A DNA stretch of 32,502 nucleotides, from contig CAYOMI010000002.1 of the NCBI GenBank assembly GCA_964405005.1, positions 1-32,502 on the forward strand, given 5' to 3'. Each line of letters begins with the position of its first letter. Within the stretch, counting starts at the first letter, position 1. The stretch is from an uncultured Planctomycetales bacterium. Lineage in GTDB: Bacteria; Omnitrophota; Gorgyraeia; Gygaellales; Profunditerraquicolaceae. The notes below the pieces were generated by a model that saw only the letters and a list, made by a program, of their open reading frames with translations, did not search any database and was not told the origin of the DNA. The translations under genes were made by a program, and so were the position numbers. Below are positions 1-32,474 of this stretch, one piece after another.

Positions 1-3000
1 ACTCTAGGTAGGCCTTGGCTGGAGGCATCTTTAGGAACATCTGGTTGATAGCCGGTTTTCTTAATGAGCCCATTAAGCAAATCCATCATTTCATCATATA
101 GGGCTCTATGCTCTGCATATATATTTGCTATATTATCTATTTCCTTAATTATGGCCTCAATTCTCTTATTTATATCCGCAGGAGTCTCTCCTTTATCTAC
201 TTTCGCATTTAAATCAAGGAGTTCTTCTTTAATTCTCGCTATCCTTCTTGCAGTTTCTGCTTTTTCCTGAGTATCTCTGACTACTCTTTTGCCGGGTATC
301 TCTACTTCTATTTCTTTCTTCTTACTCTTGGGTGTTACTGCCCTAGGCGTGGCTACTTTTCTCATAAATGCCCTAACCTTATGGGTTATTTTCTCAGTTT
401 CCTCGCGAACCTTTCTATCCAGACCCCTTGCTTCTTGCTTCATTCTATTAACTTGCTTTCTCATCCTTCTATCTTTAATGGGAAGGTCTTGGCTTATTTT
501 ATTTGTTCTTCTGTAATGCTTAACTATTTGCTTAACTATTACTAATATCTCCACCAGTAAAATAGCTCCCAGAACAACTAATGTTATATTATACGGGTTT
601 TTAAAGAAATTAACCCATTCATGAGAAGGCGTGGGGGTTGCCAAGCGATGAGTATCTATTGGTGATGGAGTTTGCGTAATTCCTGTGTCAGTAACCGTAC
701 CAGTCTTTGCGCCTACCAGAGATTCAGGAACATTTAAATTAGTAATATCTATTTTCTGGCCTATATAAATCTTATTGATATCTACAAATCTGGGGTTATC
801 TGCCTGGATTGCTCTGTAACTGTTATAAACCGCGCCATTATCACCCCAGAACTTGCCTGCCAGGAGGGATTTTCCAGTAGTAAGTAAATTTAAGGCATTT
901 AAGCCAATCCTTAACATCTCTACAATATGGCCCCAGGTATCGCCTTTCTGCACTAAAATATAAATCCTGTTACCTTGCTTGATAACTTCACCACAAGAGG
1001 CAAACTCTGGCAAAGCAAAGATAATAAAGGCGGCTACTAAAACTATTACTGTGGGTAAAATTGCCTTTATAAAACCAGAACCTCCATTGCCACCAAAACC
1101 ACCCTCAGGCATTATAGGATTATTAGGTGTTCCGGGTCCCTTGCCACCTGAACCGCCATCACCCCCAAAACCACCCTCAGGCATTATGGGATTATTAGGT
1201 GTTGTAGGTCCGGGATTAAATTCAAAGGTGGATTGTTCAAGATTAGGAGTGGAAGTTGTATCTGGAGCAGAAGGAGTAAATTCAAGGTTAAATGCCTCAG
1301 TTCCGCCAAATTCAGGCGTGGTTGAGGTAGAGGTTGGGATAGAAATAAAAAGTAGGTAGTCGTGTTCTTTTTTTGCTTCTCTTAATTCTTCTCCTGTCTG
1401 TGTTTTTTCTGTTTCCAGTATTGTTTCTTGAGAATCTACTTTTAGGGAGGCAGGAATTCTTGTGGGCTTATTATTTTTAGGAAGATTCTGGGTTGCTGCC
1501 CTCTGAAGATCTTCTCTTTTCTGTTCCGGGGTGCGATAAATCCCACTAGTGTTAGACGCAGAAATAGAACCTTGCTCAGTTCTCTCACTTAAAGTTCTTA
1601 CACCTTGGGCATCTAGGCTTTCTTTAGTTAGATTGCCTGCTTTGCCTTCTGCTACTACCTGCTCTTTGCCCACTAATGCTTGGGCAGTAGAGTCAGTATG
1701 CACAACTGCATTGGATTTACGGTTTAAAGATTTTGCAAATTTGCGCGCTTGTGTTAAACCACGACCAGCGATTGCGCTAATCGCTGTCGCCACTCTGATA
1801 CCCGGATGGTAAGTGCGGTGTGCTCCTCCAATAATCTTGATTAACTCTTTTACGCTCAGGACATTATCAGTTATCTGACTTAAGCCCAGGCCTAAACCAA
1901 AGCCCTGATGAATCTGGCCTATGCTGCTACCTGTCGGCGCAGGGATATTAGTAGGCGTCTCAGGTAAAGGTGCTGGCTGTTGCCTCTCTGCGGGAATATT
2001 CCTGCTAGTCTGGTGCTCTCCTACTATTGCCCTGGCCTGTGTAATTAAGGTTTCCTTATTGTCTAAGATATATTGCCTGGACGCAATACTCTCTGCCATC
2101 TGCGCCAGTAAGTCAAATATATTAGAAAGGAACTTTTCCTCAGTTAAATTATTATTGAATTCTAAGCCATTAGCCAACCTTTGCAGGTGCTCATCCGTAA
2201 TCTCGCCTAAATTATCAAAAGCCAGAGCCACTGCCACTGCCTCTTTTACCTCCTTAGATAAATAGGGATACAACTGGTTAAGTTGTGTATGCCAATACTC
2301 ATGCTTTAAATTCCAGAGTCGGAATTGACTGGATTCAGTGTGGAATTTAGGTTCAATGATTAAGCGGCCTTTCTCATCAAGAGAAGTAACAGGCTTAGCG
2401 TTAAACATCATAAAGATTGAATTGGCAGCACTGGGAACCGAAACTCCAAAGTCAGGCGCAATTTGTTTAATCTTACTGCTTAATTCCGTATGCGACTGCT
2501 GAAGTAATGTATCCTTTACCCATTTTGCTAATTCCTCTGAGTTCTCTATTTTTGCTGCACCATTTCCATTGTTAGTTATGGCGGCTGCTAATCTATCAAA
2601 GAAGGATAAGGCCTGATTATTTCCCTGCGTGGCTTCTTTTAATATGGCGGCTAAAGCCAGCCAGAGCACTACTTCTTGGTATTTAGAAGCATTTACTGCT
2701 GCCGTAAGATTTACGGCTAATTTACCATTTCTTATGCCATTATTTGCAAAATATGTTTCCGCAAGCAAGCGCTGCGCTTCAAATTCTTTAACCACCTCTT
2801 TATCTTCACCATTGTGCGCCTTGGCCAGCAGTTGATGATAGAAAGCAGTCATCTTTTTATTTAAAGGATCATTTTCTTTATATTCTCCATTCTTTTGGGC
2901 ATCCTCTATAACTTTAGCCTGCTCATCAAGGTAACTCTCAGTTACATAAATAGAGCCATTCTCCTGCCAGGTCTCTCCTACAAGAATGGAAATTTCTCCC

Positions 3001-6000
3001 TCTTTTAATGAAGTTTCCTGGCTAACATAAATTACCTTTCCTGACGTATTATTTATCTTATACACTACCAGGCCTGCAGGATGTGTCTTTCCTTCCTCAT
3101 CTTCTAACTGCAGATCTGACCAGCGCACGATATAATTATCTTTGATACCCTTTAAGTTATTTATCCTCTCTAAGATTACCTTTCTCTGCACAGGAGTAAG
3201 TTGTTCTAAATCAAAAATCTTTTCTTGCTCATCAACCACTTGACCATTTTTTATAGAGGCAGTAGCAGCTTTCTTCCATACTTCTACCTCAAAAACCTCT
3301 AATGCTTTCTTAACTACCTCTTCATCACTATCCTCTAATAATTCTGTAAACGCATCAACAACCTCATCATCTACCTTAATCTTCCTATTCTCTACCATAG
3401 CCAGCAGCGCAAGTTTACCTTGCTTATCAAGGCTGCCTTCCTCTAACATTTCTAAAGCAACTTGCTCTGCCGCTTCTCTATTTTGTGCCTTCGAAACAAC
3501 ATTTGCCCAGAATCTTATTTCTACATCCTCGTCATTTAGATATGTGTCTAAATCTTGACCTGCCTCTGCCAATAACTGCGCTGCTTTTCTACGGATGGAG
3601 ATAATCTTTTCTTGATATTGCTCATTGTTAACCTTTCCATAAGTACCCTTATTGAGCAAATTCAATAGTTGTCCTTTTACAGCATCAATATTTCCGCCAT
3701 TTTCTAACACTCCTAATAACCTTTCTATTTCTTCTAACTGCGTAAGGTTCGGCCTCTTTATGTTGTCTAATATAGTTCCCAATTGGCTGGGTTGTTTTGT
3801 CTCTCTTAAGAAATCTAATAGCAAGGTGCGGATTTCTGGATTCTTGAATTCACTGACATTAACCTCTACTTTTAAGTTAGGTTCTGCCTTTAAGTTAGGT
3901 TCTGCCTTAACAAATTCAGAAATAATCCTGAATACTATCTTAGCAAAACTCACCTCCAGTTTATCTCGGTCAAGTTTCATCTCTTTATGTAGAGAATTTA
4001 TTAAACTATCTATCATATTTTGGGTCGGTATCACTTTCTTATTCTCCACCAAGAAGGAGATGGTTTTTTCTAAAGCAGAAATGAGTTCTTGAGCGTCTCT
4101 ATTATCTCTTAAACTGCTAATAAGGTGAATAATTTCATCGGCCTTAACATTAATCTCATTTATTACTGTCTTATAGTTGTGCTCAACTAAGATATCTAAA
4201 AGATGATTAAATTTCTCAGTTAAGATAGTGCATAATGCAAGATTGCCTTCCTCTATAATAATACCCCAGGCAGAATTGATTTTTTCTTTATCTGCTTTTT
4301 GTGGATATTTGGCATAAACTGTTAACAAGGCAATATTTACCCAAATCTTTATATCTTTATCTGGGTCATTCAAATAACTTTCGATAGCGGATAAATCGCT
4401 TTCCACCAATGAAGCCAATACCTGCAGGGCAATAATTTTATCTGCCTTATCATCAGTTGATAATTTAGTTTTCATAAATTCTCGAGCAGTCTCTGGACCA
4501 AACTGGTTAATAAATGAAGATATCTCACTTTCAGAAAGTTTACCTTTCTTATCGCCTATTCTCTTTAGTTTCCTGTAACTTACGGTAATATCATTCTTTC
4601 TTCCTTCTAAGCAGTCAATAATCTGCTTAATCTCTGATGCATTAAGTGCTTTTTGAACATCTGAAATTTCAACTTTATTCTTTTCTGCCCAAACCTTAAA
4701 TAATCCTGCGGCTTCATTCCTTAAAGCAGCATTTTCCTCTTTTAGTAAGAATACTATCTGCGTAATGGTGGTTCTATTAACATAATCAAGCAATTTTTGT
4801 AATTTCTGAACGGCTTTAATCTCCATCTCTGGCTGGCTGTTTCTTAAAGCAATGTTTACCAAGGCCTGGACTAAATTCTTACCAAATTCTTCTCTCTCTT
4901 TTCCTTCTTTGACTTTGCTAAGATTAATGTTTTCTATTGTCGCCATTGCTTGCATATGGAACGAATCTAATTTTATATCCTCTTGTTCTTTCTTGCTCGG
5001 AGCATTGACAATTGTTTCTAATATAGATAAAGCCAAGGAAGGATTATTATCAGCGATTTTTGCAATTATGTCCATTGCCTGCTGGCGCACACCAGCACTC
5101 AATTCGTTATTAAGCACAATCTGGCTTAATGCTGGTAAAGGATTGTGTTGCTGGGAAACTGTAGAGATATCCTTTACCCTGCCATCTAAAAATGCCGCTA
5201 AGGCCTCAGCCAAAACATTATTTCTCTTATCTTTATCTTCTTCTCTTAGGCCTTGCTGTAATTTTGTGGCGTAATAATCCACTGGGTGGGTCACGGTTAG
5301 AGTGTCTTCTGTCTTTACATCTACTCCTGTATTAAATGCTCCAGTAAAATTAACTTTCTTAATTGCTTTGCGCAGTGTCTTTTCTTCGCCATCCCAGGCA
5401 TCAAGACCAATTTTTCCTTTTATAATTTTTAAATACTCTACATCCTTGATTGCGCCGTTATCGCTATCAAAGAGGAAATGATAGAAGGCCAATTTTCTAA
5501 CCTGCTCGGTTCTGGCACCATCACCCATTAAAATCAAATCCAGAACTCTTTCTTCGTAATTAGTACTTTCAAAAGTAACTTTATTATTTTCCCTTTGCTG
5601 TCTTAAAATTTCTTTTGCTTTAAGATAATCCTCAATGTCCTTTTGGCTAAATACAGATTTATTGAATTTAAATACGACCCTGCCAGTGTATAATGAGCCG
5701 ATGCCTGCAGCAATTGCTCCTCCTATTCCTGCTGCAATGCCGCCTATCCCACCGATAAAAATAGCCGCAACCAAAAGGCCTGCACCTATAACCGCAAAAC
5801 TTATAGAAGCAAAACTTGGTTTCCAAGAAGAAGTTAGCCGCAAACCGAATTTTCCTGCATAATCACTACTGGCAAATTCCTCTACTTTGGCTTGGGCCTG
5901 GGCTTCAACTGCTTCTCTAAAGATATATATCTCGTTGCCATTTCTGGCAGAAAGCGGTAGACCTTCAGCTACCTTTTCTCTACGCAGAGTAATAACCTCG

Positions 6001-9000
6001 CCTTCTTTTTCCGCATAAAAGGCCTCAATTCTTCCGTTTAGATATACCAAACGGAAATTATCACCTACATCAACCACTCCTTTGTCCAATAACAACCCAT
6101 TAATCTGCTCTACATCCAAACCTGCCTGCTGCATAAGGCCTAATAATCTTGTGGCTACCTGATTTAAAGAAGCGATATTATCTGCGGCTTCCTGTAGCGC
6201 TTGACTTACCTTTGCCTGCGCAATTAATTCCTTTGCCTTCTCTATTCTTTTTGTTTTATCTGACCTTACTTCCTCTTTGCTCAAAAGATAAGGAGCATAT
6301 CTTGAGATTACCTTATTCAGTCGGCTGTCGTTAAGCACCTTTTGCGTAAATTCCTCTTTATCACTGATAGGAATTTCTGTAGTACTTAACTTCTGCATCT
6401 CTTTGCTCTTTATTAAATGCCTTCCCCATGAACCAATGCCTCTACCAAAAATATCCTGCGGGAGTTTAGTAGAATTAAAGAGGTAGAATTGTTTTTCTGG
6501 AAGCGGCTGAACTGTCTGCACTGTTCCTTTTTCATCCAGCACAACCCACATATCCGGCCGGGCAAAAAGCAGCGTTACAAAATCGCCGTTAGCCTTCATT
6601 ATTAATAACGGCTGGCTATCCTTAGCATAAAATTCCTTATAAATATCGTCTGTTTTAACTCTGTAGGTATATGTCTTTTTGTGCAGTTTTTCCAGCAACT
6701 TAGGAATATTATTTACCTTGTGTAATTTCTCCTCCAGAGCATACGCTAAAATTACATCTATTGCTTCCTTTCTGTCTATACCCAGTGTTTCATTGAGGGA
6801 GTCTACTAAATAGGGGATATCCTGCTGAGAGCTTATATCCTGCAGTACTTTCTCTACTTCCCTTGCATTCATCAACAATAATCTCTTGCTAAGATTTTCA
6901 AGCCCAATCTCTTTTAAGAAATCCCGCTTTTCTTTCTCAGCCTTCAGCTCATTCCTCTGTAATTTATCTTTAAATTCTCTCAAAGAATCTTTTTGCGCGT
7001 ATAATATAACTTTACCTTTACTTTCTTCTGCGTGACGATTATAGAAACTTACTTTCTCCTGAGAGAGGATTTTTTCGTAACGGTGTTTTAATTCTTCGTA
7101 TCCTATATCCCAAATTCTCTGTGTCCTTGTAAACCTCACCTCTCCCTTAGAACCCAAATCCATCAGGAAGAGGAATTTGTTAAACTGTTCTTCGTAATTC
7201 TGCTCAGTTATAGTTTTATCTATGCCAAAAATCTGTTTTATTGCGGTTTGTAGGGAAGCATTTACGTTTTGCGTATCAAACTTAGCTAAGTCTGGCTGGA
7301 AACTCTTTCTCCAGTATTCAAAAAGGGCAACCTTCTCCTCTTTAGAAAGCTCATCCACCCGCTTCTGGGTGCCTTTGTTTCTTATCTCTATTACGCTCTG
7401 CGCGTCTTTTACCTGTTTTTCAATTTTCTTTAATTCTTCCTGCATTTTTTGCAAAACTTCCCTGGCCAGACGGGTATGCTCGCCTGCTAAAATATCCTTC
7501 GCCGCTTGCAGGCGCATAAGTTGTATATCTTTATCATTATCTGGAGTTGCTAACAAAGATTTTAGATTTGCTAAATAAACAGGGATCCTCCCTAAAGCAT
7601 CATTTCTACTATTCGTAAGTACCGCATCTTCTTCCAGTTTATCTAATTCCTTTAAGGCCTCCTCAACGCTCCTAATCTCATTTTTATCATCCTTTATCAA
7701 TCCTTTATAGAGAACCACTAAATCCTTAATTCTCTGCCGGTGCGTAACTGCTGAACTTCTTATAACAGCATCAATCACAGCAGAAACCGCATTAAGGTCT
7801 TCTTGTCTGACTTGAACTGTTTCTGCCTCTTGTCTCTTTAAATTCTTAAGTATCTCATTTAACTGCTTAATATTCTGGGAATAATCCAAGGATTGCCCCT
7901 GGATATTATTTATGGCTTGGGCTAAGTTTTTTAATTGCTGCTCAATTTTGTTAAGCTCATCTTTTACAGCAGTATCTTCCTGTTTGATTTCCTCACTTAC
8001 CCACTCATCTCTTGTAATCCCTGCTTCTGCCCAGCGGTGCACCAGCGTATCTAACTTCTTCAAAGTTTCCTTTAGGGCGCTCCTTAACTCTGCTTTTACC
8101 CGCTCATCCTTTATTTTTTCCAGTTGTGTATTGATAAATTTCTCGGTTATACCTTCACGGCCAAAGCCAGAAACCATATCTTTTCCCTCAGTGTTTAGGG
8201 TTTTTCTTAACTCCTGCTTAGCAGTAAGATGAACTAAAAGGTCTCTCCTGACCTTGTTATTTAGGGCCTCTATTTCTTTTACTTTTTCCTCTGCGCTCTT
8301 TTTCTCTTCCAGTACCTTCTTTATGGTGTAGTAAAAATCTTCTCTCACTTCTGCCTTTTGGTTATCATCTAATGTGGTAGCTATCCCTGGCTGGCTTTTG
8401 TCAAAACCAAAATGTTTCTCTGCTGCTTCAATTGCCTTAAATATCTGTTTGGCCTGCTTTTTTAATTCACCTCCCACATAGGTTGTGGCGTCACCCTCAA
8501 AGAGGGATTTTGCTTTTCTGTTCTTCCTATCTTTAAGCCAATCTTCAGCAATCTTTTTAAAATGGTCATCTTGCTTTTCTGATAATTCCTGTAAAGCCTC
8601 TCGCATTCTCGTAACACAATCCTCGTGCTTTTCAGGCTTATCAGAAACCTGCAAGGTCTTCTCTAAATTTTCCTTGAGCATATCACCCAAAGCTACAGAC
8701 CTGGCTTTACCGCACAATTCCTCTCTCTTATGCGCATAATCTTCATCTACTAATGTAGGTAGGGAACGCAGATACCGGTAGGTTTTCTGCTCTTCTTCAG
8801 ACAGGAAAGAAAGATATTTTTCTACTCTCTTATCTGATAACTTTCTTATTGCGCGAATGTCTAAAGTATCTTTAGCAATAAAAGGATTAGAGAATGTTAC
8901 AATTGTTTTTATAACATCATCTCTCTTTATTCCGCGTTTTGCAAATTTCTTGACTATCTCTTCGGCAATCTCATCTGCTTCTTTAAGACCCAGCACAAAA

Positions 9001-25587: not shown

Positions 25588-25605
25588 TTCCTAATTTGCA
25601 GTAAA

Positions 25606-25840: not shown

Positions 25841-25890
25841 ACCTGATTTTCTTTTCTTTAACTACCCAAACTGTCAAAATCAATCTAAAA

Positions 25891-25962: not shown

Positions 25963-25971
25963 ATATATAAA

Positions 25972-28900
25972 TTAATTTAACATCTTAAAGGACTCTTCCA
26001 TAATTTTATCGCGTTTCCCCTCTATTTCCTCTGCCGGAATACCGGTAGAATCTGAACCAAATCCTGGCTTTAAATCTTTCACCTCAGCAGGCAAAAGTCC
26101 CTCAAACCCACTCGGCTCAGACAACTGCTTGGTGCGCACATACACTGCCTGAAGCTCATTATCTCTGGGGTCTATCACAAAATTTAGACCATTGCTGGAG
26201 AACTGTTCTGAATTATCTAAGGCCTTAATTAAAGAAAAGTTGGTAACTTCTGTTTTTTTGGTGTAATCAATTGCGTAATTAATGAGATTTTTGTCATAAA
26301 TATAAAATTGGGAACGTTCTATGCGCGGCTCTCTTTGCAGATTATTATTGAGAGCATAACCCATCTCCATTGACCAGGCAGGCAAGGGAAGCAAATTCAG
26401 ACCTTCTTGGGTGGGTAATAGCCGGTAATTGTAAACACGCAACAGTTCTACCTGTGATAAATCCCGATTCATCTGCTCGGCAACTTCCTGAGCCTTTTCG
26501 ACTAAAACATCCCTCTGCGGCATTAAGTCAAAGATATCAGAAATAGGAATAGGCAGGCGGTTGCCTTCCATTTCTTTAAATTTAGCAAATTTCTCTAATT
26601 TCTCCTCAGGAGTAGCCCTATTAAATGTTTCTTTTTTCTCCTCAGGAGTAGCCCCATTAAATGTTTCCTTAAATCTTTCTACATATCCGTTAACATTAGG
26701 ATTTGTGTAAACCAGATGCACTACTGGTTCTAAAAGACCTGTAGAGGCGCTTTCCTCTGGGCTTAAAGAGAAGTTGTTCTGCCCTAGGCATCTATTTTCT
26801 AATACTTTATTAAATAAATCTGCAATAAGCGCGTTTTTGCTGTCATACCATTTTCCAAATAAATTTTCTTCCTTCCCGGAATCTAATGTGTATTTATTCT
26901 CGAGAGGAATACCAAACTCAAGAGGAATACCAAAATTCTTTGTATCTAAGAATTGCTCCTTTAGCAAACTTGAATCTAATACCTCATAATTAAAACCACC
27001 TCCTGTAGAATCCAAAGATGATTGGAGTTTTTCGAGGTCTTTATAATTTTTATAATCCTTTTGCAGGAATTCGATATATTCTTTAATCTCTGCTTCGCTA
27101 ATAAACTTCTTAAACTTCTCAGGTAAAGTGAATTCTGTATTATTTCTAACTGCCTCTCGCACAAGAGATTTCAATTCACGCACTACAGCTGAAGATAACT
27201 TCCCCGCATCAATATTATAGTATCTTTCTGATATAAGATATGATCCAGAATTTATATCCGCATAAATCCAGCGCGCAGCCGGACCTGTATAAGGGCTGGC
27301 ATACTTACCTGTGTCATAAATATTAAGGTCATAAGTAATATTGGGGCCGAAACTAATTGGGGCCGGAGTTTTAATTTCTTGAGTTTTGGGAGGAGTAATA
27401 ATTTCTTTTGGCACCTTGATAGTTTCTTGTACTGCTTTCTCATATTCTTCTTTGTTATAAATTGTAAACTTAACATAACGATCCGCTTCTCTCTCTTTAT
27501 GTGTAGTGTAGGTTCCATCGGGATGGAATTTCGGAACTGTAGCCTGAGATTTACCCAGACTTTTTGTTTTAATCCGATCTCCTGGCACGCCCATTTCTGC
27601 CAAAACATCTTTAATCGCATCAGCGCGCCTCTGTCCTAATTCGAGATTATATTTTTCGCTGCCCCAAACATCACAAGCGCCCACCACTTCAAGTTCCTTA
27701 TCAGGATTTTGTTCTAAATATTCTTTGATTGGTTCAAGCTCTTTTTCAAGTTTAGTGTGGGCATCCTTACGCACAACAGATTTATTAAAATCAAAATAGG
27801 AATCTACGAGTAGTTTATCCTCTTTAACTGCGGGTATGTTATATTCTCTAATTCCTTCTTCAAAGACGGTTTCTTTTCTTTCTGGTTCAATTATTTTTGT
27901 TTCGGATTTCATTGGCCACTGCCGCGGCATAGTTATCTCGCTATAGTCTCTGGTAACACTAAGAATCGGACCAAAAGAACCGTAGTAATAATTTGTGGAT
28001 TTATCCAGTTTAACTGTACCCCAGTCTCCGGCTGTCCCTTCAGGTCCAGGATAATACTCTTTCCCAAAATACTCTGTCTTTATTCTCCTTCCTGAATCAT
28101 CCACTTCTGTGCGGCTTAATAAACCATAATCTAGGTGATAAAAAATAACCGGTAGTTGAGCAACAAATGTTTTTAATTTCTCAAGCTCCTCTGGTCCCTC
28201 TTCGGGAAGCCAGGAAACTAATTTTGCTAACTTTAACCTTTCTTCGCCGCCTTCTTTAAATGCCTCAGCGCGCAACTTATACACATTTGCGTGAGTAGAA
28301 ATACTAAGCAGATTTTTCATTGTATTTTTAAAATCTTTCTCATCTAACTCATTTAATTGTCCTTCGGTTCTAACAATAAAATCAACCAGTTGCTGGGAAT
28401 TCCAGTTAGCATTCAGATCTCTGAGAGTCTTGATTGTCTCTTTAAAAGCCGCAACTTCTACATACAAACAGACTGTATTAATTTCTTCTTCCGTTAGTTG
28501 TCTCTTGTCTAATTCAGGAATGAGTTTCTCCACAAGGTCTTTCTGGATCTTGCTCAAATCAGCACTGTGTTTTAAGTTATTTAAGATATCTAATAAATTC
28601 TTCTTATTTTCTAATACTTCCTTCTTACTTTTCACAATTCGTTCAACTTCTTCATCTGTAAAGCTGTCTCGGGCAATTAAAAATACTGGCTTAGCCGGGT
28701 CATAAGGTCTGTCTGCTTTTGCAAGACGAAAGTTCCCATACACTTCAATATCCTGGGGTATCCCTGCTATACTGGGATAATAAGTGCCTTCTATACCTGC
28801 AACATTTTTCTTTAATGCCGCCAAACGTTTTTGTTTAGTTACCTCATCTACGTCTTTTTGTACAGTGATAAAGGCCTCCAATCTCTTTATTGTATCCCCA

Positions 28901-31900
28901 TCTAATTTTTTCAATCTACCTGTTAATTGCCTGTCTACACGGTAATCTACAATCCCGCCAATTATAATATCATTTAACTGGATACTGCCTTTTTCTAAAT
29001 AAGCCCGGCTCCCTAAAGATATAGTTGAGGTGAACGCCCCCACTATAGGAATAATGGAAAATAACCTCTGTAGCGGAGAATTTATTAAAGCCTGTAAATT
29101 GGGCATTTCTATTTTTTCTAGCCGGTCTTCTTTTTTAGATAAAGACTCTTTTATCGTGGGAATAGTGTGTAATAACTCTTTGATCTCTTCCAGGTCGCTT
29201 ATCGTCCCTTTACCGCTTGCTCTGGCAAGAAAATCCAATGCCTCGCCATGCTCTTCTGCCAATTCTTTATACCCCTCAAGAGTAGCATATTTCCCATCCT
29301 TAATCGCTTCTTCTAAGGCGCGTAACTTTTTCAGTTTATTAGCTAAATCCTCAGCCTCTGCCTTCTTAATTTTCAGTTCACGTGCTAATTGTTCTCCTTG
29401 CAGGATAAAGGCAGCATAGGAGCGATATTCTAAAGGTAGATAAGGATTCATAATTGCATAACTGAGGGAATTGGCAAAATCCCGGTTAGCCACCTCAGCC
29501 ATCCGACCCGCTACAATATTACCCAATGCCTGTATGGGGTTGCTTCCCCGCATCATACTATCTATGTAAGAAATGAAGAAGTCATAATAATCCCAGGGCT
29601 TTCTGATAAATGAATCTGCTCCTGAGGATAAATCTTCACCAAAAGGATAGGTGTTGGTAGCCGCGGCAATCAAATTATTATTGAAATTTTGCAAAACACC
29701 CCTGATAAAACGGCCAGCGTCTGAAATTCCCTTTAATCTGGCAGCCAAGTAAGGGTCTTCTGACTTAAGCTGAAGATAGGCAATATGTACCGGTGAATCA
29801 GCAGGAAGAATTAATTTATATATTTCTTTTTTGCTCAACTGCTCTTTTCTACTAAGCGGTTCACCCAAAGTTATTTTCTGTCCCTGAGAATCAGTTAAAA
29901 TAATTTTCCCTGGTTCGCCTTGCACAGGTATGCCGGCTATAGAAACTATACCTCCTTCTTCTTTCTCCAACAATATGTAGGTTTTGCCATCTTTTGTAAA
30001 CAACGCTGTCTTCCCATCATTTGTTTCTCCTTTTTCATAATCTAAAGCCAGGGTGACTGAGTCAATGAGAATAACATTATCTTTTCTTGCCTCTACCTTT
30101 CCCTCTTTTACCTCTACCTCGTTTAACTTTACAAATGTTACTTTTATGGCGCCAGGGTCTTTTCTAAAGAATGTATCTATTAATCCTGAAACCACACTGC
30201 TGGCAAGTAAATGCCCAAATTCAGAAACCACATCCTGCGAGATATCATTCTTTTTGCAGTAATAGCCCCAGAGTACCCTAAATACTGCTATGCCTACCTC
30301 TTCCAATGCCTTTTTAGCCATATATTGGCCTAAGGATAAGCCCTGTTTGTTCTCCCAGGGATTGCGTGGCTGGAAGTTACCCTTCTCGTCTTTTAGCCCT
30401 ACTCTGCCTGCATAGTAGCTATTTAAAGTAGTTAAGTTCATCACAAACCCCGCAGCTATGCCTGAGACCATATCTGCAATCGCCATCTTCCATAAACTCT
30501 CAAAAACTGGCTCAGATTCGCCGCTATGGTCGGTTTTATGACCCAGGGCTTTTAAAATGAGAATTTTAGTGAGGCTATAGACAATCGGGCCTAAGCCTAA
30601 GTGCCGCATTGCCTCCAGTCCTACTGCAAAGGCCGAACGATTGGCAGTCATCAGGTTCCCGTGGAAATCATACCATAAACCACCGCCAGTCAGGCTTATT
30701 AAATCCTGAAGCGCGTCTGCTTTTGCGGTGTAATTTAGTATCTTTTCTTTTACTGTGTTGAAAATTTCTTGCGTAAGAACAAACTTGCCCTTTCCTCCTA
30801 CTTCTACGATGTTAATATCCTGGGCTCTTTTGCCTAACTTTAAGGCTACTTCAAAGCTTACTCTTACTACCTGTTCTTTACCTTCCTCTCCCGTAACTTT
30901 AATTTCTACCTCAGCATTGCTAAGATCCGTTGCCGTGTAGGATTTACCATTTACATTAATAATTTCCTCTTTTCCTAATGAATCCAACTTTTGAATTGCC
31001 TTGCCGTCTTGCTTACGCGCAAAACCGCCTCCTTTAGTCAAATAAAGACCAAATGCCTTTGCTACAGTCGCGCGCAGCAGACCAGAAAAGAAAGCATTAG
31101 TAAAAGTCCCTGCCAGGCTTCCTGCTACTGCGGCTATTGCCTCATCCCAGCCGGCATCTTCTAATTTTTGCTTTACATACTCAGAGATAATGAGTTTAAA
31201 TGTGCCGCTGATTAAATCCGTGACTAACTGTAATGTTGCCAGACCGTATGATCCCTTCATTCCATAATAAATATAAGGGTTGAAACCTCCCTCTTTAGTA
31301 ATAAGGGCTTTAAAAGCCTGGCGCCAGGATGTGGTCTTTGGCAAATCTCCTTTTAGTCTTCCCACATTAAAGAAATTCTTAATTTTAGCGAGCAGTGATG
31401 TTGTCTGTTTTGCTGCCTGCTGGGGAACTTGCTTTACAGTCTCTTTGGCGCCTACCTTGGCAACTTCTTTTATACTCTCTTTAGGCAACTCTTTAGCTAC
31501 TCCGGCTTTGCCGCCTTTGAATAAATTCAGGATACTGCGCCAGATAGTTTTTATCCCAGTCTTAATCGTCTCAAATATTTTGAATATTCCTTTGACAATC
31601 CATTTTAGCGCATCAACAATGGCTTTGACAATTGACTGGATTACAGAGGTGGCTGCTGCTGAGGTTGTTGAAGCTACCACTGTTCCTGTTGTTGCACCAA
31701 CTGTTGCTCCTGTTGCGCCTGTTGTTGCGCCACCAGTTGTTGCGCCTGCTGTCCCTGCTGTTGCGCCACCTGCAGTTGATCCACCAGTTGTTGCGCCTGC
31801 TTCTGTGCCTCCTGCAGCTGCTCCTCCTGAAGTCCCTCCAGCGCCTCCGCCTGCAAATGCTCCGGCAGCAAAACCCGCAATTGCGCCTGCAACCACTCCG

Positions 31901-32241
31901 GCAACCATAGAATACATTGCACCTTTGGTAATGGTAACACCACCAATTTTAAATAGCGGCTCGCCATAGTCGCTGTAGTGGTTATAATACATATAAAGGC
32001 CCATAAGGTTAGCGGCAATTGTAGAGGCAAAGGTAGCGACAGGCCATATAAACATACATAAATCAGTTATTCCTCCCACAATAAAGCCCATTGTCCACAT
32101 TTCCATTGGGCTTTTGTCACCCGGATTACCTTCACGGGCCCAGGCAGGTGTGCAGACATTAAGGAAGAAAATAATTGCCAGAATTGCGCTAATCCATTTC
32201 TTCACTTTTTCCCGATTTTGAGTTTGATTTTTCATAAACAT
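25972..32241 (-). CDS. 2,089-aa envelope protein with signal-like N-terminus, hydrophobic helices, G/A/T low-complexity tract and OmpA-like domain
   Basis: Complete ORF in the supplied track. Domain evidence is given in the sub-features. It has its own promoter, riboswitch-like leader and attenuator immediately upstream. Confidence 0.9.
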   Translation of the reverse strand: MFMKNQTQNREKVKKWISAILAIIFFLNVCTPAWAREGNPGDKSPMEMWTMGFIVGGITDLCMFIWPVATFASTIAANLMGLYMYYNHYSDYGEPLFKIGGVTITKGAMYSMVAGVVAGAIAGFAAGAFAGGGAGGTSGGAAAGGTEAGATTGGSTAGGATAGTAGATTGGATTGATGATVGATTGTVVASTTSAAATSVIQSIVKAIVDALKWIVKGIFKIFETIKTGIKTIWRSILNLFKGGKAGVAKELPKESIKEVAKVGAKETVKQVPQQAAKQTTSLLAKIKNFFNVGRLKGDLPKTTSWRQAFKALITKEGGFNPYIYYGMKGSYGLATLQLVTDLISGTFKLIISEYVKQKLEDAGWDEAIAAVAGSLAGTFTNAFFSGLLRATVAKAFGLYLTKGGGFARKQDGKAIQKLDSLGKEEIINVNGKSYTATDLSNAEVEIKVTGEEGKEQVVRVSFEVALKLGKRAQDINIVEVGGKGKFVLTQEIFNTVKEKILNYTAKADALQDLISLTGGGLWYDFHGNLMTANRSAFAVGLEAMRHLGLGPIVYSLTKILILKALGHKTDHSGESEPVFESLWKMAIADMVSGIAAGFVMNLTTLNSYYAGRVGLKDEKGNFQPRNPWENKQGLSLGQYMAKKALEEVGIAVFRVLWGYYCKKNDISQDVVSEFGHLLASSVVSGLIDTFFRKDPGAIKVTFVKLNEVEVKEGKVEARKDNVILIDSVTLALDYEKGETNDGKTALFTKDGKTYILLEKEEGGIVSIAGIPVQGEPGKIILTDSQGQKITLGEPLSRKEQLSKKEIYKLILPADSPVHIAYLQLKSEDPYLAARLKGISDAGRFIRGVLQNFNNNLIAAATNTYPFGEDLSSGADSFIRKPWDYYDFFISYIDSMMRGSNPIQALGNIVAGRMAEVANRDFANSLSYAIMNPYLPLEYRSYAAFILQGEQLARELKIKKAEAEDLANKLKKLRALEEAIKDGKYATLEGYKELAEEHGEALDFLARASGKGTISDLEEIKELLHTIPTIKESLSKKEDRLEKIEMPNLQALINSPLQRLFSIIPIVGAFTSTISLGSRAYLEKGSIQLNDIIIGGIVDYRVDRQLTGRLKKLDGDTIKRLEAFITVQKDVDEVTKQKRLAALKKNVAGIEGTYYPSIAGIPQDIEVYGNFRLAKADRPYDPAKPVFLIARDSFTDEEVERIVKSKKEVLENKKNLLDILNNLKHSADLSKIQKDLVEKLIPELDKRQLTEEEINTVCLYVEVAAFKETIKTLRDLNANWNSQQLVDFIVRTEGQLNELDEKDFKNTMKNLLSISTHANVYKLRAEAFKEGGEERLKLAKLVSWLPEEGPEELEKLKTFVAQLPVIFYHLDYGLLSRTEVDDSGRRIKTEYFGKEYYPGPEGTAGDWGTVKLDKSTNYYYGSFGPILSVTRDYSEITMPRQWPMKSETKIIEPERKETVFEEGIREYNIPAVKEDKLLVDSYFDFNKSVVRKDAHTKLEKELEPIKEYLEQNPDKELEVVGACDVWGSEKYNLELGQRRADAIKDVLAEMGVPGDRIKTKSLGKSQATVPKFHPDGTYTTHKEREADRYVKFTIYNKEEYEKAVQETIKVPKEIITPPKTQEIKTPAPISFGPNITYDLNIYDTGKYASPYTGPAARWIYADINSGSYLISERYYNIDAGKLSSAVVRELKSLVREAVRNNTEFTLPEKFKKFISEAEIKEYIEFLQKDYKNYKDLEKLQSSLDSTGGGFNYEVLDSSLLKEQFLDTKNFGIPLEFGIPLENKYTLDSGKEENLFGKWYDSKNALIADLFNKVLENRCLGQNNFSLSPEESASTGLLEPVVHLVYTNPNVNGYVERFKETFNGATPEEKKETFNRATPEEKLEKFAKFKEMEGNRLPIPISDIFDLMPQRDVLVEKAQEVAEQMNRDLSQVELLRVYNYRLLPTQEGLNLLPLPAWSMEMGYALNNNLQREPRIERSQFYIYDKNLINYAIDYTKKTEVTNFSLIKALDNSEQFSSNGLNFVIDPRDNELQAVYVRTKQLSEPSGFEGLLPAEVKDLKPGFGSDSTGIPAEEIEGKRDKIMEESFKMLN
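26601..26672 (-). repeat. In-frame 36-nt tandem duplication (12 aa)
   Basis: tctcctcaggagtagccctattaaatgtttcttttt (26601..26636) versus tctcctcaggagtagccccattaaatgtttccttaa (26637..26672). The protein is KETFNGATPEEK followed by KETFNRATPEEK. Confidence 0.9.
26903..26938 (-). repeat. In-frame 18-nt tandem duplication (FGIPLE x2)
   Basis: agaggaataccaaactca (26903..26920) versus agaggaataccaaaattc (26921..26938). The protein reads NFGIPLEFGIPLEN. Confidence 0.85.
27455..27810 (-). other. OmpA-like (OmpA_C / MotB-type) peptidoglycan-binding domain
   Basis: VDSYFDFNKSVVRKDAHTKLEKELEPIKEYLEQNPDKELEVVGACDVWGSEKYNLELGQRRADAIKDVLAEMGVPGDRIKTKSLGKS...ADRYVKFTIY. It fits F-x-F-x-x-S...L...I...G-x-x-D-x-x-G-S-x-x-Y-N-x-x-L-x-x-x-R-A-x-x-V...G-V...I...G...N/D-R-[RY]-V. 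The frame was verified at 27781..27822. Confidence 0.75.
31645..31870 (-). repeat. G/A/T-rich low-complexity tract forming a local GC-rich island
   Basis: The protein is GFAAGAFAGGGAGGTSGGAAAGGTEAGATTGGSTAGGATAGTAGATTGGATTGATGATVGATTGTVVASTTSAAATS. The DNA reiterates gttgcgcc / tgttgc units. The composition opens spurious ORFs in three other frames. Confidence 0.85.
32137..32241 (-). other. Signal-peptide-like N-terminus (possible cleavage after AWA)
   Basis: MFMKNQTQNREKVKKWISAILAIIFFLNVCTPAWA followed by REG: a basic n-region, a hydrophobic core and an A-x-A site. It might instead act as an uncleaved anchor. Confidence 0.55.
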
Positions 32242-32277
32242 TTGAAAACTCTTTATTAAACTTTTAATTAACTCTTT

Positions 32278-32318
32278 AAAACAAAAGCCGGATTGCTTTT
32301 TGCTTCGGCAACCCGGCT
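32278..32318 (-). terminator. Intrinsic-terminator (attenuator) hairpin plus U-tract in the leader of the 2,089-aa gene; overlaps the aptamer 3' block
   Basis: In the RNA, AGCCGGGUUGC pairs with GCAAUCCGGCU (11 bp including one G-U) around the loop CGAAGCAAAAA, followed by UUUUGUUUU (plus 32278..32286). The ATG lies about 36 nt downstream. Confidence 0.7.
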
Positions 32319-32426
32319 ATCTTTTTAAACGCCGTCGAGAAAATAAATAAAAACCGAATTTTTCTGCGTCTACAAGACCCGTGGCTTTGCGCCCCTACCT
32401 CGCGGTAGGTTTACCTTTTCGTGCGC
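32302..32426 (-). promoter_or_regulatory. c-di-GMP-I (GEMM-I) riboswitch aptamer, copy B, with an enlarged second hairpin
   Basis: RNA: GCGCACGAAAAGGUAAACCUACCGCGAGGUAGGGGCGCAAAGCCACGGGUCUUGUAGACGCAGAAAAAUUCGGUUUUUAUUUAUUUUCUCGACGGCGUUUAAAAAGAUAGCCGGGUUGCCGAAGC. It has the same block order as copy A, with a GNRA (GCGA) loop on a fully compensated stem (CCUACC/GGUAGG versus CCCAUU/GAUGGG). The base of the second hairpin also covaries (GUCUU/AAGAU versus GUCCU/AGGAU). Confidence 0.7.
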
Positions 32427-32446
32427 TTTTATCTTGTAACACTCAA

Positions 32447-32474
32447 ATTATAGCATATATCTTGCCTCTATCAA
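32447..32474 (-). promoter_or_regulatory. Sigma70-like promoter of the 2,089-aa gene with an extended -10
   Basis: Minus strand reads TTGATA (32474..32469), a 16-nt spacer ending in TGC, then TATAAT (32452..32447). The predicted TSS is near 32440. Confidence 0.6.

What the first reader, a model, noticed from the sequence alone, without database searches (positions are those of the whole stretch)
1..32474. System-level view: two giant envelope proteins, each behind its own promoter-riboswitch-attenuator cassette
Both genes have the same control layout: TTGAYA, a 16/17-nt spacer, TGnTATAWT, a GEMM-I aptamer, an overlapping terminator and an AAAGAGUU-containing spacer before the ATG. A terminator-like hairpin (25775..25840) separates the genes, so they appear to be independently transcribed but co-regulated. 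Together they carry two different peptidoglycan-binding modules (OmpA-like at 27455..27810 and LysM-like at 745..965). They also carry many membrane segments, two putative cysteine peptidase cores and an internal SecA-like ATPase. My hypothesis is a c-di-GMP-gated, cell-envelope-spanning attachment or remodelling apparatus built from two giant polypeptides. I do not recognise this combination as a described system.
Basis: inference. Interest (0 to 1): 0.85.

Follow-up and report, generated by a model that had tools for sequence, protein, structure and literature searches.

The report
Riboswitch-gated giant genes of Omnitrophota
The window is part of an Omnitrophota genome in which a 2,089-residue envelope protein gene and a giant gene of more than 8,471 codons each sit behind their own promoter, c-di-GMP riboswitch and terminator, and the same riboswitch precedes the giant gene in about 90% of related species, a link that the papers on these giant genes that I could search do not mention.

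Summary
The core observation is confirmed. On the minus strand, gene A (32241..25972, 2,089 aa) and gene B (25415..3, at least 8,471 aa, runs off the window) are each preceded by a sigma-70 promoter with a TG-extended -10, an Rfam-significant c-di-GMP-I aptamer, and an intrinsic terminator whose 5' arm is the aptamer's own 3' strand. That arrangement predicts an ON switch.

Gene B's N-terminal module is 53-73% identical to proteins of Candidatus Omnitrophota MAGs. Its layout (N-terminal TM, C39 peptidase, internal SecA-like motor, C-terminal TMs) matches the published "giant gene" class.

In 80 species-level genomes, 66 of 77 testable loci carry the aptamer just upstream of the giant gene, and 5 more carry it at the head of the operon. 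Promoter and terminator are conserved too.

Of the domain claims:
- OmpA and C39 are confirmed.
- SecA-like is confirmed at fold level.
- LysM is only suggestive.
- A second cysteine peptidase is not found.

New observations:
- A double-glycine cleavage motif lies immediately after the C39 domain in 83 of 86 sequences, which suggests self-processing.
- A giant-gene-specific leader element, GGGGTAAGGGG, has no known function.

The components are known. The riboswitch link appears to be unreported.

The parts
32447..32474 (-). Promoter of gene A: TTGATA, 16-nt spacer, TG-extended TATAAT
   Evidence: Matches 11 of 12 consensus bases, with TG. The same promoter type lies upstream of 74 of 81 related aptamers, against 3 of 81 in shuffled controls.
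32303..32423 (-). c-di-GMP-I aptamer of leader A
   Evidence: Rfam RF03167, 61.6 bits (gathering score 59), E = 2e-12. Own covariance model: 82.1 bits. The ligand-contact positions are canonical: G20, A47 and C92 equivalents.
32277..32318 (-). Intrinsic terminator of leader A. The 5' arm AGCCGGGTTGC is the aptamer's 3' strand, the 3' arm is GCAATCCGGCT, followed by TTTTGTTTT.
   Evidence: Sequence, minimum-free-energy fold, strict hairpin scan.
25972..32241 (-). Gene A: 2,089-aa envelope protein. It has a signal-peptide-like N-terminus (AWA|RE), hydrophobic segments at aa 48-76 and 108-130, and a Gly/Ala/Thr-rich linker.
   Evidence: ORF, hydrophobicity. A-like ORFs lie directly upstream of the giant gene in L036, L081, L022, L066 and L028.
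27541..27798 (-). OmpA-like peptidoglycan-binding domain of gene A (aa 1482-1567)
   Evidence: Pfam PF00691, E = 5e-14 to 1e-14. Four full-length A-like homologs lack it, so it is an accretion rather than a defining part of the family.
25765..25845 (-). Intergenic terminator-like hairpin (AGAAGGGGTC...GACCCCTTCT) followed by a U-run, between genes A and B
   Evidence: Fold of -22.7 kcal/mol, z = -2.1; sequence.
25606..25634 (-). Promoter of gene B: TTGACA, 17-nt spacer, TG-extended TATATT
   Evidence: Matches 11 of 12 consensus bases, with TG; conserved in relatives.
25495..25584 (-). c-di-GMP-I aptamer of leader B
   Evidence: Rfam RF03167, 71.4 bits, E = 3e-15. Own covariance model: 92.8 bits. 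Covariation across 82 homologous aptamers supports the structure.
25453..25510 (-). Intrinsic terminator of leader B. The 5' arm AGCCGGGTTG is the aptamer's 3' strand, the 3' arm is CAATCCGGTT, followed by TTTTTGTTTT.
   Evidence: Sequence, minimum-free-energy fold. Present in 68 of 82 relatives by a strict rule, with compensatory changes between the arms.
25331..25379 (-). Giant-gene leader element: TTGGGGGAAAGGGGGAA, a T-rich stretch, then TATAGGTAAA. In this window it lies inside the provisional ORF.
   Evidence: A GGGG(T/G)AA(A)GGGG motif lies 90-193 nt after 66 of 82 aptamers. There are only 77 occurrences in 2.49 Mb of locus sequence. It has no conserved RNA structure. Function is unknown.
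3..25415 (-). Gene B: giant gene of at least 8,471 codons with no stop in the window and no internal repeats. The start codon is provisional (ATG 25415).
   Evidence: Open frame; no self-similarity by BLASTP. The N-terminal ~340 aa are 53-73% identical to Omnitrophota proteins.
25152..25217 (-). N-terminal hydrophobic anchor or signal segment of gene B (aa 67-88), followed by an AQA|VEY site
   Evidence: Kyte-Doolittle score 2.28; highly conserved in the family.
24507..24923 (-). C39 cysteine peptidase domain (aa ~165-303; Cys175, His264)
   Evidence: Pfam PF03412, E = 3e-8. Near-invariant Cys and invariant His in alignment A2. It is the only copy in A plus B.
24447..24482 (-). Double-glycine-type cleavage motif L312-E-P-A-E316-A317-K-K-I320-K-G322-A323 | G324, exactly where family homology ends
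   Evidence: Present in 83 of 86 sequences. Positions -12 (L/I/V), -8 (E/Q), -4 (V/I), -2 (G) and -1 (A/S/G) are each conserved in 100%. The regex background is 8 matches in 172,409 aa. It matches the published C39 substrate consensus (PMC6363468).
11076..12575 (-). SecA-like SF2 ATPase motor (aa ~4281-4780): GGGKT 4303, DEFH 4416, a ~180-aa insertion, GFSGT 4597, GATGVDY 4719, QGIHRNNR 4746
   Evidence: Motifs; Helicase_C borderline; profile against PDB sequences. AF2 model with pLDDT 72. The top 21 Foldseek hits are SecA or SecA2.
5691..5810 (-). 40-residue Gly-rich hydrophobic segment (aa 6536-6575), forming one or two TM helices
   Evidence: Kyte-Doolittle score 2.43.
522..1067 (-). C-terminal membrane module: TM helix aa 8117-8137, a ~140-aa loop with a LysM-like stretch (744..965), and TM helix aa 8278-8298 followed by a Lys/Arg-rich tail
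   Evidence: Kyte-Doolittle scores 2.68 and 2.57. LysM scores 17.3 bits against a cutoff of 20.9. The SafA LysM domain is the only PDB hit, at E = 0.6.

Best explanation
The window is a fragment of a Candidatus Omnitrophota genome carrying a 'giant gene' locus of the already described C39 / SecA-like class. It also carries a previously unremarked control layer.

The control layer. Each of the two large genes has a strong sigma-70 promoter, a canonical c-di-GMP-I aptamer and an intrinsic terminator. The 5' arm of that terminator is the aptamer's own 3' strand, so the aptamer and the terminator cannot both form.
- Without ligand, the terminator forms and transcription stops about 150 nt into the leader.
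- With c-di-GMP bound, the aptamer holds that strand, the terminator cannot form, and RNA polymerase reads into the 6.3-kb or >25-kb gene. This makes it an ON switch (inferred).

The proteins.
- Gene A is an exported or membrane protein with a peptidoglycan-binding OmpA domain.
- Gene B has a conserved N-terminal module made of a hydrophobic anchor, an apparently active C39 cysteine peptidase, and a double-glycine site directly after it. I infer that the peptidase cuts its own polypeptide (in cis or in trans) after Gly322-Ala323. That would separate the conserved anchor-peptidase module from the fast-evolving body.
- That body contains a SecA-like ATPase and a C-terminal membrane module with a possibly peptidoglycan-binding loop.

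The wider circuit. In relatives, the same type of riboswitch also precedes some Tad-like pilus operons next to the giant gene. The published loci also have PilZ genes and GGDEF domains. The most likely function is therefore a c-di-GMP-induced surface attachment or host-interaction programme of these ultra-small, host-dependent bacteria.

What is shown and what is inferred.
- Shown: the sequence features, their conservation, the covariation, and the fold-level identity of the motor.
- Inferred: the ON polarity, self-cleavage, membrane topology and the physiological role.
For: Taxon and class
- 54 homologs of the N-terminal module are nearly all named Omnitrophica/Omnitrophota C39 proteins.
- 80 loci were retrieved from GTDB species representatives.
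- The published class description matches.

Riboswitch
- Rfam hits in the window and in 4 of 4 first relatives.
- The covariance model finds an aptamer 126-530 nt before the C39 match in 66 of 77 testable loci.
- In L052, L053, L060, L072 and L081 it heads a short upstream gene or the A-like gene that abuts or overlaps the giant ORF.
- Covariation: 193 double-sided changes against 40 in shuffles, with 0 of 500 shuffles reaching the observed value.
- Ligand positions: G20 in 74 of 82, A47 in 82 of 82, C92 in 80 of 82.

Expression platform
- A terminator sharing the aptamer's 3' strand occurs in 68 of 82 hits by a strict rule.
- The two arms show compensatory changes.
- The minimum-free-energy folds show the terminator form.

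Promoter: 74 of 81 aptamers have one upstream, against 3 of 81 in shuffles.

Second riboswitches: they occur in front of pilin/Tad clusters (L004, L050, L052) and A-like genes (L066, L081).

Proteins
- OmpA.
- C39 with conserved Cys and His.
- Double-glycine motif, matching the published consensus.
- SecA-like motor.
Against: - No expression or binding data exist, so ON polarity rests on structure logic only.
- The riboswitch is not universal. L010, L028, L036, L068 and L083 lack it even with filters off, where tested.
- The A-B pairing is found in only a minority of relatives.
- Position -7 of the cleavage motif is Ala or Ser, not the Leu of the ComA consensus.
- Topology is unresolved. The positive-inside rule places the C39 domain outside the membrane, whereas an ATPase further along the same uninterrupted segment should be cytoplasmic (inference).
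- Gene B's true start codon is uncertain, because the conserved non-coding leader element lies inside the ORF as called.
- The window does not contain the end of gene B.
Confidence: 0.8

Rival explanations
1. The riboswitches are OFF switches, or are not c-di-GMP specific. High c-di-GMP would then repress the giant gene, or another dinucleotide such as 3'3'-cGAMP would be the ligand.
For: Both polarities are known for c-di-GMP-I riboswitches (established knowledge). The best-scoring Rfam model is the 'GGC' variant family rather than RF01051. Five of 82 related aptamers have A at the G20 position, which is the change associated with cGAMP-sensing GEMM-Ib (own knowledge).
Against: The terminator's 5' arm is itself part of the aptamer, so ligand binding and termination are mutually exclusive. 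No separate anti-terminator is evident. Both window aptamers and most relatives carry the canonical G20, A47 and C92. A47 is A in 82 of 82, so they are not the A47G 'GGC' variant.
Confidence: 0.12
2. Genes A and B form one operon, or are functionally unrelated neighbours. Under this reading the second cassette is a leftover of recombination, and the 'two-protein apparatus' is an accident of this genome.
For: A-like genes are absent upstream of the giant gene in most relatives, where a Tad-like cluster sits instead. Where an A-like gene is present, riboswitch usage varies: none in L036 and L028, only upstream of the A-like gene in L081, and only upstream of the giant gene in L022. The intergenic hairpin is only modestly stable (z = -2.1).
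Against: Large A-like coding regions directly precede the giant gene in at least 5 independent species, and A-like N-terminal domains do so in 3-4 more. L066 has both riboswitches, like the window. Both window cassettes have intact promoters, aptamers and terminators. So co-regulation here is real, even if physical interaction between the proteins is not shown.
Confidence: 0.3
3. The C39 domain is a non-catalytic C39-like chaperone domain, as in HlyB-type type I secretion transporters, or it processes other double-glycine substrates. The conserved L-S-D-x-E-A-K-x-I-x-G-A stretch would then be a structural linker, not a self-cleavage site.
For: C39-like domains without proteolytic activity exist and tether substrates (PMC6363468; West-Roberts et al.). 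Position -7 differs from the consensus. No cleavage data exist.
Against: The catalytic Cys is nearly invariant and the His is invariant across the family. The motif matches at -12, -8, -4, -2 and -1, each conserved in 100%, and it marks the exact end of sequence conservation. In several genomes the C39 module is a separate ORF that ends soon after this point.
Confidence: 0.3

Closest known systems
Omnitrophota giant genes ('Archaeovorin'/C39-SecA architecture; West-Roberts et al. 2023, bioRxiv 10.1101/2023.11.21.568195; bioRxiv 10.64898/2026.06.07.730766)
   Same: Same phylum. Both have an N-terminal C39 domain next to a signal or TM segment, a divergent SecA-like motor lacking the scaffold and wing domains, few TM regions, a non-repetitive and fast-diverging body, and an upstream T2SS/Tad-like cluster in relatives.
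   Different: Those papers do not mention any riboswitch, promoter or leader element, or a double-glycine site (0 occurrences). In this window a 2,089-aa OmpA-domain protein lies upstream of the giant gene instead of the pilus cluster. Pfam detects no glycosyl-hydrolase, dockerin or GGDEF domains in the 8,471 aa present.
c-di-GMP riboswitch-controlled adhesin and pilus genes in Firmicutes and Vibrio (for example the C. difficile c-di-GMP regulon, PMC6200980; B. thuringiensis Bc2-cap and V. cholerae Vc1-gbpA from my own knowledge)
   Same: A c-di-GMP-sensing aptamer in the 5' leader of a surface-attachment gene acts through an intrinsic terminator. Adhesins and type IV pili are co-regulated by the same messenger.
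   Different: Different phylum. The genes controlled here are at least 10 times longer. The association is a near-universal feature of one gene family across a phylum (71 of 77 loci). The function of the target protein is unknown.
LapA/LapG/LapD system of Pseudomonas (PMC3032545)
   Same: A very large envelope protein whose fate is tied to c-di-GMP and to a cysteine protease that cuts near its N-terminal retention module.
   Different: In the Lap system, c-di-GMP acts post-translationally through LapD. The protease LapG is a separate periplasmic protein of another family, and it cuts at a di-alanine site. Export is by type I secretion, and LapA is highly repetitive. Here control is transcriptional, the C39 peptidase is part of the same polypeptide, and there are no repeats.
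Peptidase-containing ABC transporters (PCAT/AMS: ComA, LahT; PMC6363468, PMC6959990)
   Same: A C39 domain with a Cys/His active site, and a substrate motif with a hydrophobic residue at -12, Glu at -8, a hydrophobic residue at -4 and G-G/A/S at -2/-1.
   Different: There is no ABC transporter domain. The recognition motif lies C-terminal to the peptidase in the same chain, rather than at the N-terminus of a separate small peptide. The only ATPase in the chain is SecA-like and lies about 4,000 residues downstream.
SecA / SecA2 preprotein translocase ATPases
   Same: Two RecA-like domains with motifs I-VI, and a ~180-aa insertion between motifs II and III where the SecA preprotein-binding domain sits. 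These are the best structural matches (E = 3e-11; TM-score up to 0.57).
   Different: Sequence identity is about 14%. Pfam SecA_DEAD is not detected. The motor has a DEFH box rather than a DEVD box. It is embedded in a giant polypeptide. Only 33 representative clusters exist among 1.84 billion proteins, nearly all of them fragments of very long proteins.

Membership tests
c-di-GMP-I riboswitch (GEMM-I, RF01051 clan CL00126) | Covariance-model score above the curated gathering threshold | tested here: met
   61.6 and 71.4 bits against a gathering score of 59, for the clan member RF03167.
c-di-GMP-I riboswitch (GEMM-I, RF01051 clan CL00126) | Two-hairpin architecture supported by covariation | tested here: met
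   Across 82 homologous aptamers, 92% of cells are paired and 11 pairs show double-sided changes. None of 500 shuffles reaches the observed values.
c-di-GMP-I riboswitch (GEMM-I, RF01051 clan CL00126) | Ligand-contacting nucleotides G20, A47 and C92 | tested here: met
   Both window aptamers have G, A and C. In the family the counts are 74/82, 82/82 and 80/82. The mapping of positions to Vc2 numbering is from my own knowledge.
c-di-GMP-I riboswitch (GEMM-I, RF01051 clan CL00126) | Binds c-di-GMP and changes gene expression | not testable with these tools
   Needs in-line probing, ITC or transcription assays.
c-di-GMP-I-GGC variant (RF03167) | G instead of A at the A47-equivalent position | tested here: not met
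   The position is A in 82 of 82 aptamers (CGCAAAGCC). The model simply scores best, so these should be filed as canonical c-di-GMP-I.
Omnitrophota giant-gene class (C39 / SecA-like) | Encoded in an Omnitrophota genome | tested here: met
   The N-terminal module is 53-73% identical to proteins and contigs of Candidatus Omnitrophota MAGs. The source contig itself was not found in the collections.
Omnitrophota giant-gene class (C39 / SecA-like) | N-terminal C39 domain near a signal or TM segment | tested here: met
   TM at aa 67-88; C39 at aa ~165-303.
Omnitrophota giant-gene class (C39 / SecA-like) | Divergent SecA-type helicase/ATPase domain | tested here: met
   Motifs plus SecA as the top fold matches. 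Pfam SecA_DEAD is not detected by sequence.
Omnitrophota giant-gene class (C39 / SecA-like) | Length of more than 10,000-30,000 aa | tested here: inconclusive
   At least 8,471 aa with no stop. The gene runs off the window.
Peptidase family C39 | Pfam PF03412 above cutoff, with the catalytic Cys and His present | tested here: met
   31.9-34 bits against a cutoff of 22. Cys175 is nearly invariant and His264 is invariant.
Peptidase family C39 | Cleaves after a double-glycine motif | not testable with these tools
   A matching motif is present in cis in 83 of 86 sequences, but cleavage itself is untested.
OmpA-like peptidoglycan-binding domain (PF00691) | Pfam score above cutoff | tested here: met
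   52.9-55.1 bits against a cutoff of 27.2.
LysM domain (PF01476) | Pfam score above cutoff, or the beta-alpha-alpha-beta fold | tested here: inconclusive
   12.4-17.3 bits against a cutoff of 20.9, covering only the second half of the profile. The SafA LysM domain is the only PDB hit, at E = 0.6, split by an insertion of about 27 aa. The AF2 model has pLDDT 38.
SecA (PF07517 SecA_DEAD) | Sequence-profile match to SecA_DEAD | tested here: not met
   No hit at E <= 5 in B, or at E <= 0.1-1 in its homologs. It is SecA-like by fold and by motif spacing only, so it should not be filed as a SecA orthologue.

The most novel reading that the evidence does not exclude
c-di-GMP riboswitches act as the master ON switch of the Omnitrophota attachment or predation programme. 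They gate the Tad-like pilus operon, the accessory envelope proteins and the giant gene. The giant protein is a self-processing, self-exporting machine in three steps. First, the N-terminal C39 module cuts itself off at a cis double-glycine site. Second, the embedded SecA-like motor drives translocation of parts of its own polypeptide. Third, a giant-gene-specific leader element (GGGGTAAGGGG) recruits a processivity factor so that transcripts of 25 kb to more than 100 kb can be completed.
Probability: 0.15. Interest if true: 0.85.

Novelty: new variant of a known kind. Interest (0 to 1): 0.62.

Why it matters
Giant genes of Omnitrophota, with products of up to more than 100,000 aa, are among the least understood genes in biology, and the organisms are almost entirely uncultured. 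So far nothing has been published in the searchable literature about when or how these genes are expressed.

A phylum-wide riboswitch in front of them provides a concrete and testable regulatory input, c-di-GMP. It is consistent with the PilZ genes and GGDEF domains already noted at these loci. It can be tested without cultivation, using in vitro transcription, in-line probing, or metatranscriptome coverage steps at the attenuators.

The cis double-glycine site gives a similarly testable hypothesis for how the giant polypeptide is processed.

For riboswitch biology, these would be among the longest single genes known to be controlled by an attenuator.

Tried and rejected
- Finding the source contig: exact 45-mer searches of GTDB genomes and JGI metagenomes found nothing. 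Only a 6.7-kb JGI contig carrying gene A alone was found.
- Word-indexed homology searches found nothing for whole gene A or for the SecA-like module, because candidate lists were saturated. A genome scan with gene A also failed. A-like genes were found only later, by tblastn against the loci fetched through gene B.
- Pfam on whole proteins and on 1,000-aa chunks found only OmpA, C39 and a borderline Helicase_C. NCBIfam found nothing for the motor. Single-sequence phmmer against PDB found nothing for the motor or the C-terminus.
- My first Walker-A regex missed the GGGKT motif. This was corrected by alignment.
- The single-sequence AF2 model of the LysM region had pLDDT 38 and was not used for a fold search.
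- The GGGGTAAGGGG element was tested as a structured RNA. It has no consensus structure.
- I considered and rejected these readings of the element from sequence alone, without a formal test: a sigma-70 promoter (wrong spacing), and a coding element (TAA is in frame, and the reading frame differs between loci).
- A second cysteine peptidase was rejected. The family HMM and Pfam find only one.
- Internal repeats typical of adhesins were rejected. There are none by BLASTP.
- One script call printed nothing.

Full report
**Layout**

Everything of interest lies on the minus strand. Gene A is an ordinary closed ORF at 32241..25972, 2,089 aa. A second frame is open from 25430 to base 3 and runs off the window. 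Counted from the first ATG (25415) it encodes at least 8,471 residues. Neither protein has internal repeats, and they are not similar to each other. GC is about 40%, with constant negative GC skew.

**The control cassettes**

Rfam finds exactly two RNA families' worth of hits in the window, both c-di-GMP-I clan aptamers above the gathering score. They lie at 32423..32303 (61.6 bits) and 25584..25495 (71.4 bits).

About 22 nt upstream of each aptamer is one of the two best sigma-70 matches in the region. These are TTGATA-16-TATAAT and TTGACA-17-TATATT, each matching 11 of 12 bases and each with a TG extension.

Directly after each aptamer comes a hairpin followed by a U-run. The 5' arm of the hairpin (AGCCGGGTTGC) is the 3' strand of the aptamer's second helix plus P1. 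The unconstrained minimum-free-energy folds adopt the terminator form. Because the aptamer and the terminator compete for the same strand, ligand binding should prevent termination. I therefore infer an ON switch.

The best-scoring Rfam model is the 'GGC' variant. However, the variant-defining position is A in both aptamers, as are the G20 and C92 equivalents. These are canonical c-di-GMP-I aptamers (position mapping from my own knowledge of the Vc2 structure).

The AAAGAGTT spacer motif is real. Three of the nine copies in the window lie in the two short leaders. Between the genes lies a 10-bp-stem hairpin with a U-run at about 25845..25765. It is only modestly more stable than shuffled sequences.

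**Origin**

The first 600 aa of gene B retrieve 54 proteins. Nearly all are named as C39-domain proteins from Candidatus Omnitrophica/Omnitrophota MAGs, and most are partial because contigs break inside giant genes.

A profile of the conserved module retrieved 95 relatives from GTDB species representatives. 80 loci were kept, almost all titled Omnitrophota.

The published description of Omnitrophota giant genes matches. It lists an N-terminal C39 domain near a signal peptide, divergent SecA domains lacking the scaffold and wing, TM regions, an upstream T2SS/Tad-like cluster, downstream PilZ genes and GGDEF domains. A 2026 preprint recovers C39 and SecA_DEAD architecture clusters. The first four relatives fetched show the Tad-like cluster directly upstream, with two T2SSF genes, a Tad gene and class III signal pilins.

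**Conservation of the cassette**

All four first relatives have the aptamer upstream of the C39 gene. I built a covariance model from seven aptamers. It finds 82 hits in 1.19 Mb of locus sequence.

| Feature | Result |
|---|---|
| Aptamer 126-530 nt before the C39 match, same strand | 66 of 77 loci with enough upstream sequence (median 223 nt) |
| Aptamer at the head of a short upstream gene (L052, L053, L060, L072) or the A-like gene (L081) | 5 more loci, total 71 of 77 |
| No aptamer found | L010, L028, L036, L068, L083 |
| Double-sided base-pair changes in the aptamers | 193 observed against about 40 in shuffles; 0 of 500 shuffles reach this |
| Terminator sharing the aptamer's 3' strand (strict rule) | 68 of 82; most of the rest are visibly imperfect or long-loop versions |
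| Sigma-70 promoter (at least 10 of 12) within 70 nt upstream | 74 of 81, against 3 of 81 shuffled |

In L081 the A-like ORF overlaps the start of the giant ORF. Of the five loci with no aptamer, three (L010, L028, L036) were rechecked with the model's filters off.

The two terminator arms co-vary: CCGGGTTG/CAATCCGG, CCGGGCTG/CAGCCCGG, CCGAGCTG/CAGCTCGG and CCGGGTTA/TAATCCGG.

Additional aptamers precede pilin/Tad clusters (L004, L050, L052) and A-like genes (L066, L081).

Full-text searches for Omnitrophota or Omnitrophica together with 'riboswitch' returned only an unrelated paper on c-di-NMP receptors. Both giant-gene papers contain no occurrence of 'riboswitch'.

**Gene A**

Its N-terminus looks like a signal peptide (AWA|RE). 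This is followed by hydrophobic segments and a Gly/Ala/Thr-rich linker. The OmpA domain at aa 1482-1567 is solid.

Database-wide searches failed. But tblastn against the fetched loci shows large (>2,000-aa) A-like coding regions directly upstream of the giant gene in L036, L081, L022, L066 and L028. N-terminal-only matches occur in L041, L079 and L006/L014.

Four full-length homologs have no Pfam OmpA hit, so that domain is an accretion in this genome. Riboswitch usage at A-like genes varies. L066 has both leaders, like the window. L081 has one only before the A-like gene, L022 only before the giant gene, and L036 and L028 have none.

**Gene B, N-terminal module**

Residues ~48-340 are 53-73% identical across the phylum. 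After that, homology stops abruptly. The module consists of a hydrophobic segment (aa 67-88), a linker of about 85 residues, and a C39 domain with a near-invariant Cys (GKPCG, Cys175) and an invariant His (HYILVT, His264).

Exactly where conservation ends there is a motif present in 83 of 86 sequences:
- -12: L/I/V (100%)
- -11: S/T
- -10: D
- -8: E/Q (100%)
- -7: A/S
- -6: K
- -4: V/I (100%)
- -2: G (100%)
- -1: A/S/G (100%)

The loose regex for this motif occurs only 8 times in 172,409 aa of downstream translation.

This matches the substrate signature of C39 peptidases. That signature is Leu(-12)-X3-Glu(-8)-Leu(-7) followed by GG, GA or GS, with residues -4, -7 and -12 docking into a hydrophobic groove (PMC6363468).

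I infer self-processing after Gly322-Ala323 (window 24482..24447). This would explain why the module is conserved as a unit. It would also explain why the module is sometimes a separate ORF. Neither giant-gene paper mentions such a site. Only one C39 module exists in A plus B.

**Gene B, motor**

Pfam gives only a borderline Helicase_C hit at aa ~4653-4755: 23.1-23.3 bits against a cutoff of 23.5. The homologous module in L029 scores 27.8 bits.

An exhaustive search of 1.84 billion representatives found just 33 related clusters, nearly all of them fragments of very long proteins.

Alignment shows that every SF2 motif is intact in B: GGGKT 4303, DEFH 4416, GFSGT 4597, GATGVDY 4719 and QGIHRNNR 4746. 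About 180 residues lie between motifs II and III, where SecA carries its preprotein-binding domain (SecA domain order from my own knowledge).

The family profile hits DEAD-box Mss116 (E = 4e-5) and SecA (E = 3e-3) among PDB sequences. An AF2 model built on the 12-sequence alignment has pLDDT 72 and pTM 0.68. Its top 21 PDB fold matches are all SecA or SecA2, with E down to 3e-11 and TM-score up to 0.57 against SecY-engaged SecA. DinG, XPD and UvrB follow well behind.

So 'SecA-like' is justified at the fold level. The domain fails the sequence-family test for SecA_DEAD.

**Gene B, C-terminal part**

Strong hydrophobic segments lie at aa 6536-6575 (Gly-rich, one or two helices), 8117-8137 and 8278-8298. 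The loop of about 140 residues between the last two contains 'YILVQKGDTWGHIV...' and '...NKIYIGQKIDI'. These look like the two halves of a LysM domain split by an insertion.

Pfam reaches only 17.3 bits against a cutoff of 20.9. The single PDB sequence hit is the SafA LysM domain, at E = 0.6. The single-sequence model was unusable. The LysM claim is plausible but unproven.

A Lys/Arg-rich tail after the last helix suggests the loop faces the periplasm (inference). The side of the membrane faced by the C39 domain and the motor is unresolved. The positive-inside rule puts the N-terminus inside the cell and the following segment outside, but the ATPase in that same segment should be cytoplasmic.

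**Verdict**

The protein system, however, is a known one: the Omnitrophota giant genes.

Four things appear to be new:
1. The phylum-wide promoter-riboswitch-terminator cassette in front of these genes, and in front of some neighbouring pilus and A-like genes.
2. Its predicted ON polarity.
3. The cis double-glycine site after the C39 domain.
4. A giant-gene-specific leader element of unknown function.

Noticed in passing
window 25331..25379 (-); the equivalent position 90-193 nt after the aptamer in 66 of 82 related leaders: A conserved primary-sequence element, T(T)GGGGTAAGGGG(A/G)A, then about 25 T-rich nt, then TATAGGTAAA, then 4-8 nt and the ATG. It is specific to giant-gene leaders: 66 of the 77 occurrences in 2.49 Mb of loci lie at this position. 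It is absent from the riboswitch leaders of A-like genes and pilus operons. It has no conserved RNA structure. A possible ops-like or processivity site, or a translation element, but this is untested.
   Followed up: partly
window 25331..25415 (-): The start codon of gene B is uncertain. In most relatives the long ORF starts just after 'AGGTAAAaaATG', downstream of the GGGG element. In the window that ATG is missing (AAAAATAAT), and the frame is open through the element from ATG 25415. The closest homolog, P0001, also translates this stretch.
   Followed up: partly
window 24447..24482 (-); all related loci: A double-glycine-type C39 recognition motif (L-S-D-x-E-A-K-x-I-x-G-A) lies immediately C-terminal to the C39 domain, exactly where family-wide homology ends. 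It suggests self-cleavage.
   Followed up: yes
window ~25890..25965 (-), between the gene A stop codon and the intergenic hairpin: A direct repeat of about 20 nt, AAAAATGTCCAGTCTGAAAT and AAAAATGTCCAATCTGAATT, with copies about 55 nt apart. Function unknown.
   Followed up: no
L004:735-865, L050:1461-1593, L052:861-954, L037:217-364, L062:5785-5938, L086:7015-7116: Additional c-di-GMP-I aptamers. In L004, L050 and L052 they lie in front of the pilin/Tad-like pilus gene cluster upstream of the giant gene. What follows the aptamers in L037, L062 and L086 was not examined. This suggests a small c-di-GMP riboswitch regulon.
   Followed up: partly
82 related aptamers (alignment A4, column 13): Five aptamers have A and three have C at the G20-equivalent position. 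G20A is the change associated with cGAMP-sensing GEMM-Ib, so a few loci may have switched ligand.
   Followed up: no
gene B aa 993-1344, 2905-3606 and 4281-5233, against L028, L008, L022, L010, L007, L030 and L029: Internal modules of gene B are homologous (28-37% identity) to modules at different positions in other giant genes. These proteins appear to be mosaics of shuffled modules behind a constant N-terminal unit.
   Followed up: partly
L052:8775-9950, L060:8764-9939, L072:8223-9404: In three loci a conserved gene of about 391 aa is inserted between the riboswitch leader (including the GGGG element) and the C39 gene. Its identity was not examined.
   Followed up: no
L002:8574-9278 (-), L006:6637-7362 (+): A Y1_Tnp (IS200-like) transposase gene sits between the Tad cluster and the riboswitch leader in two relatives. 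This hints at rearrangement hot spots at this junction.
   Followed up: no
window 31280..31969 (+): A 229-aa ORF antisense to gene A. It is most likely spurious, as it lies entirely inside the long minus-strand ORF.
   Followed up: no
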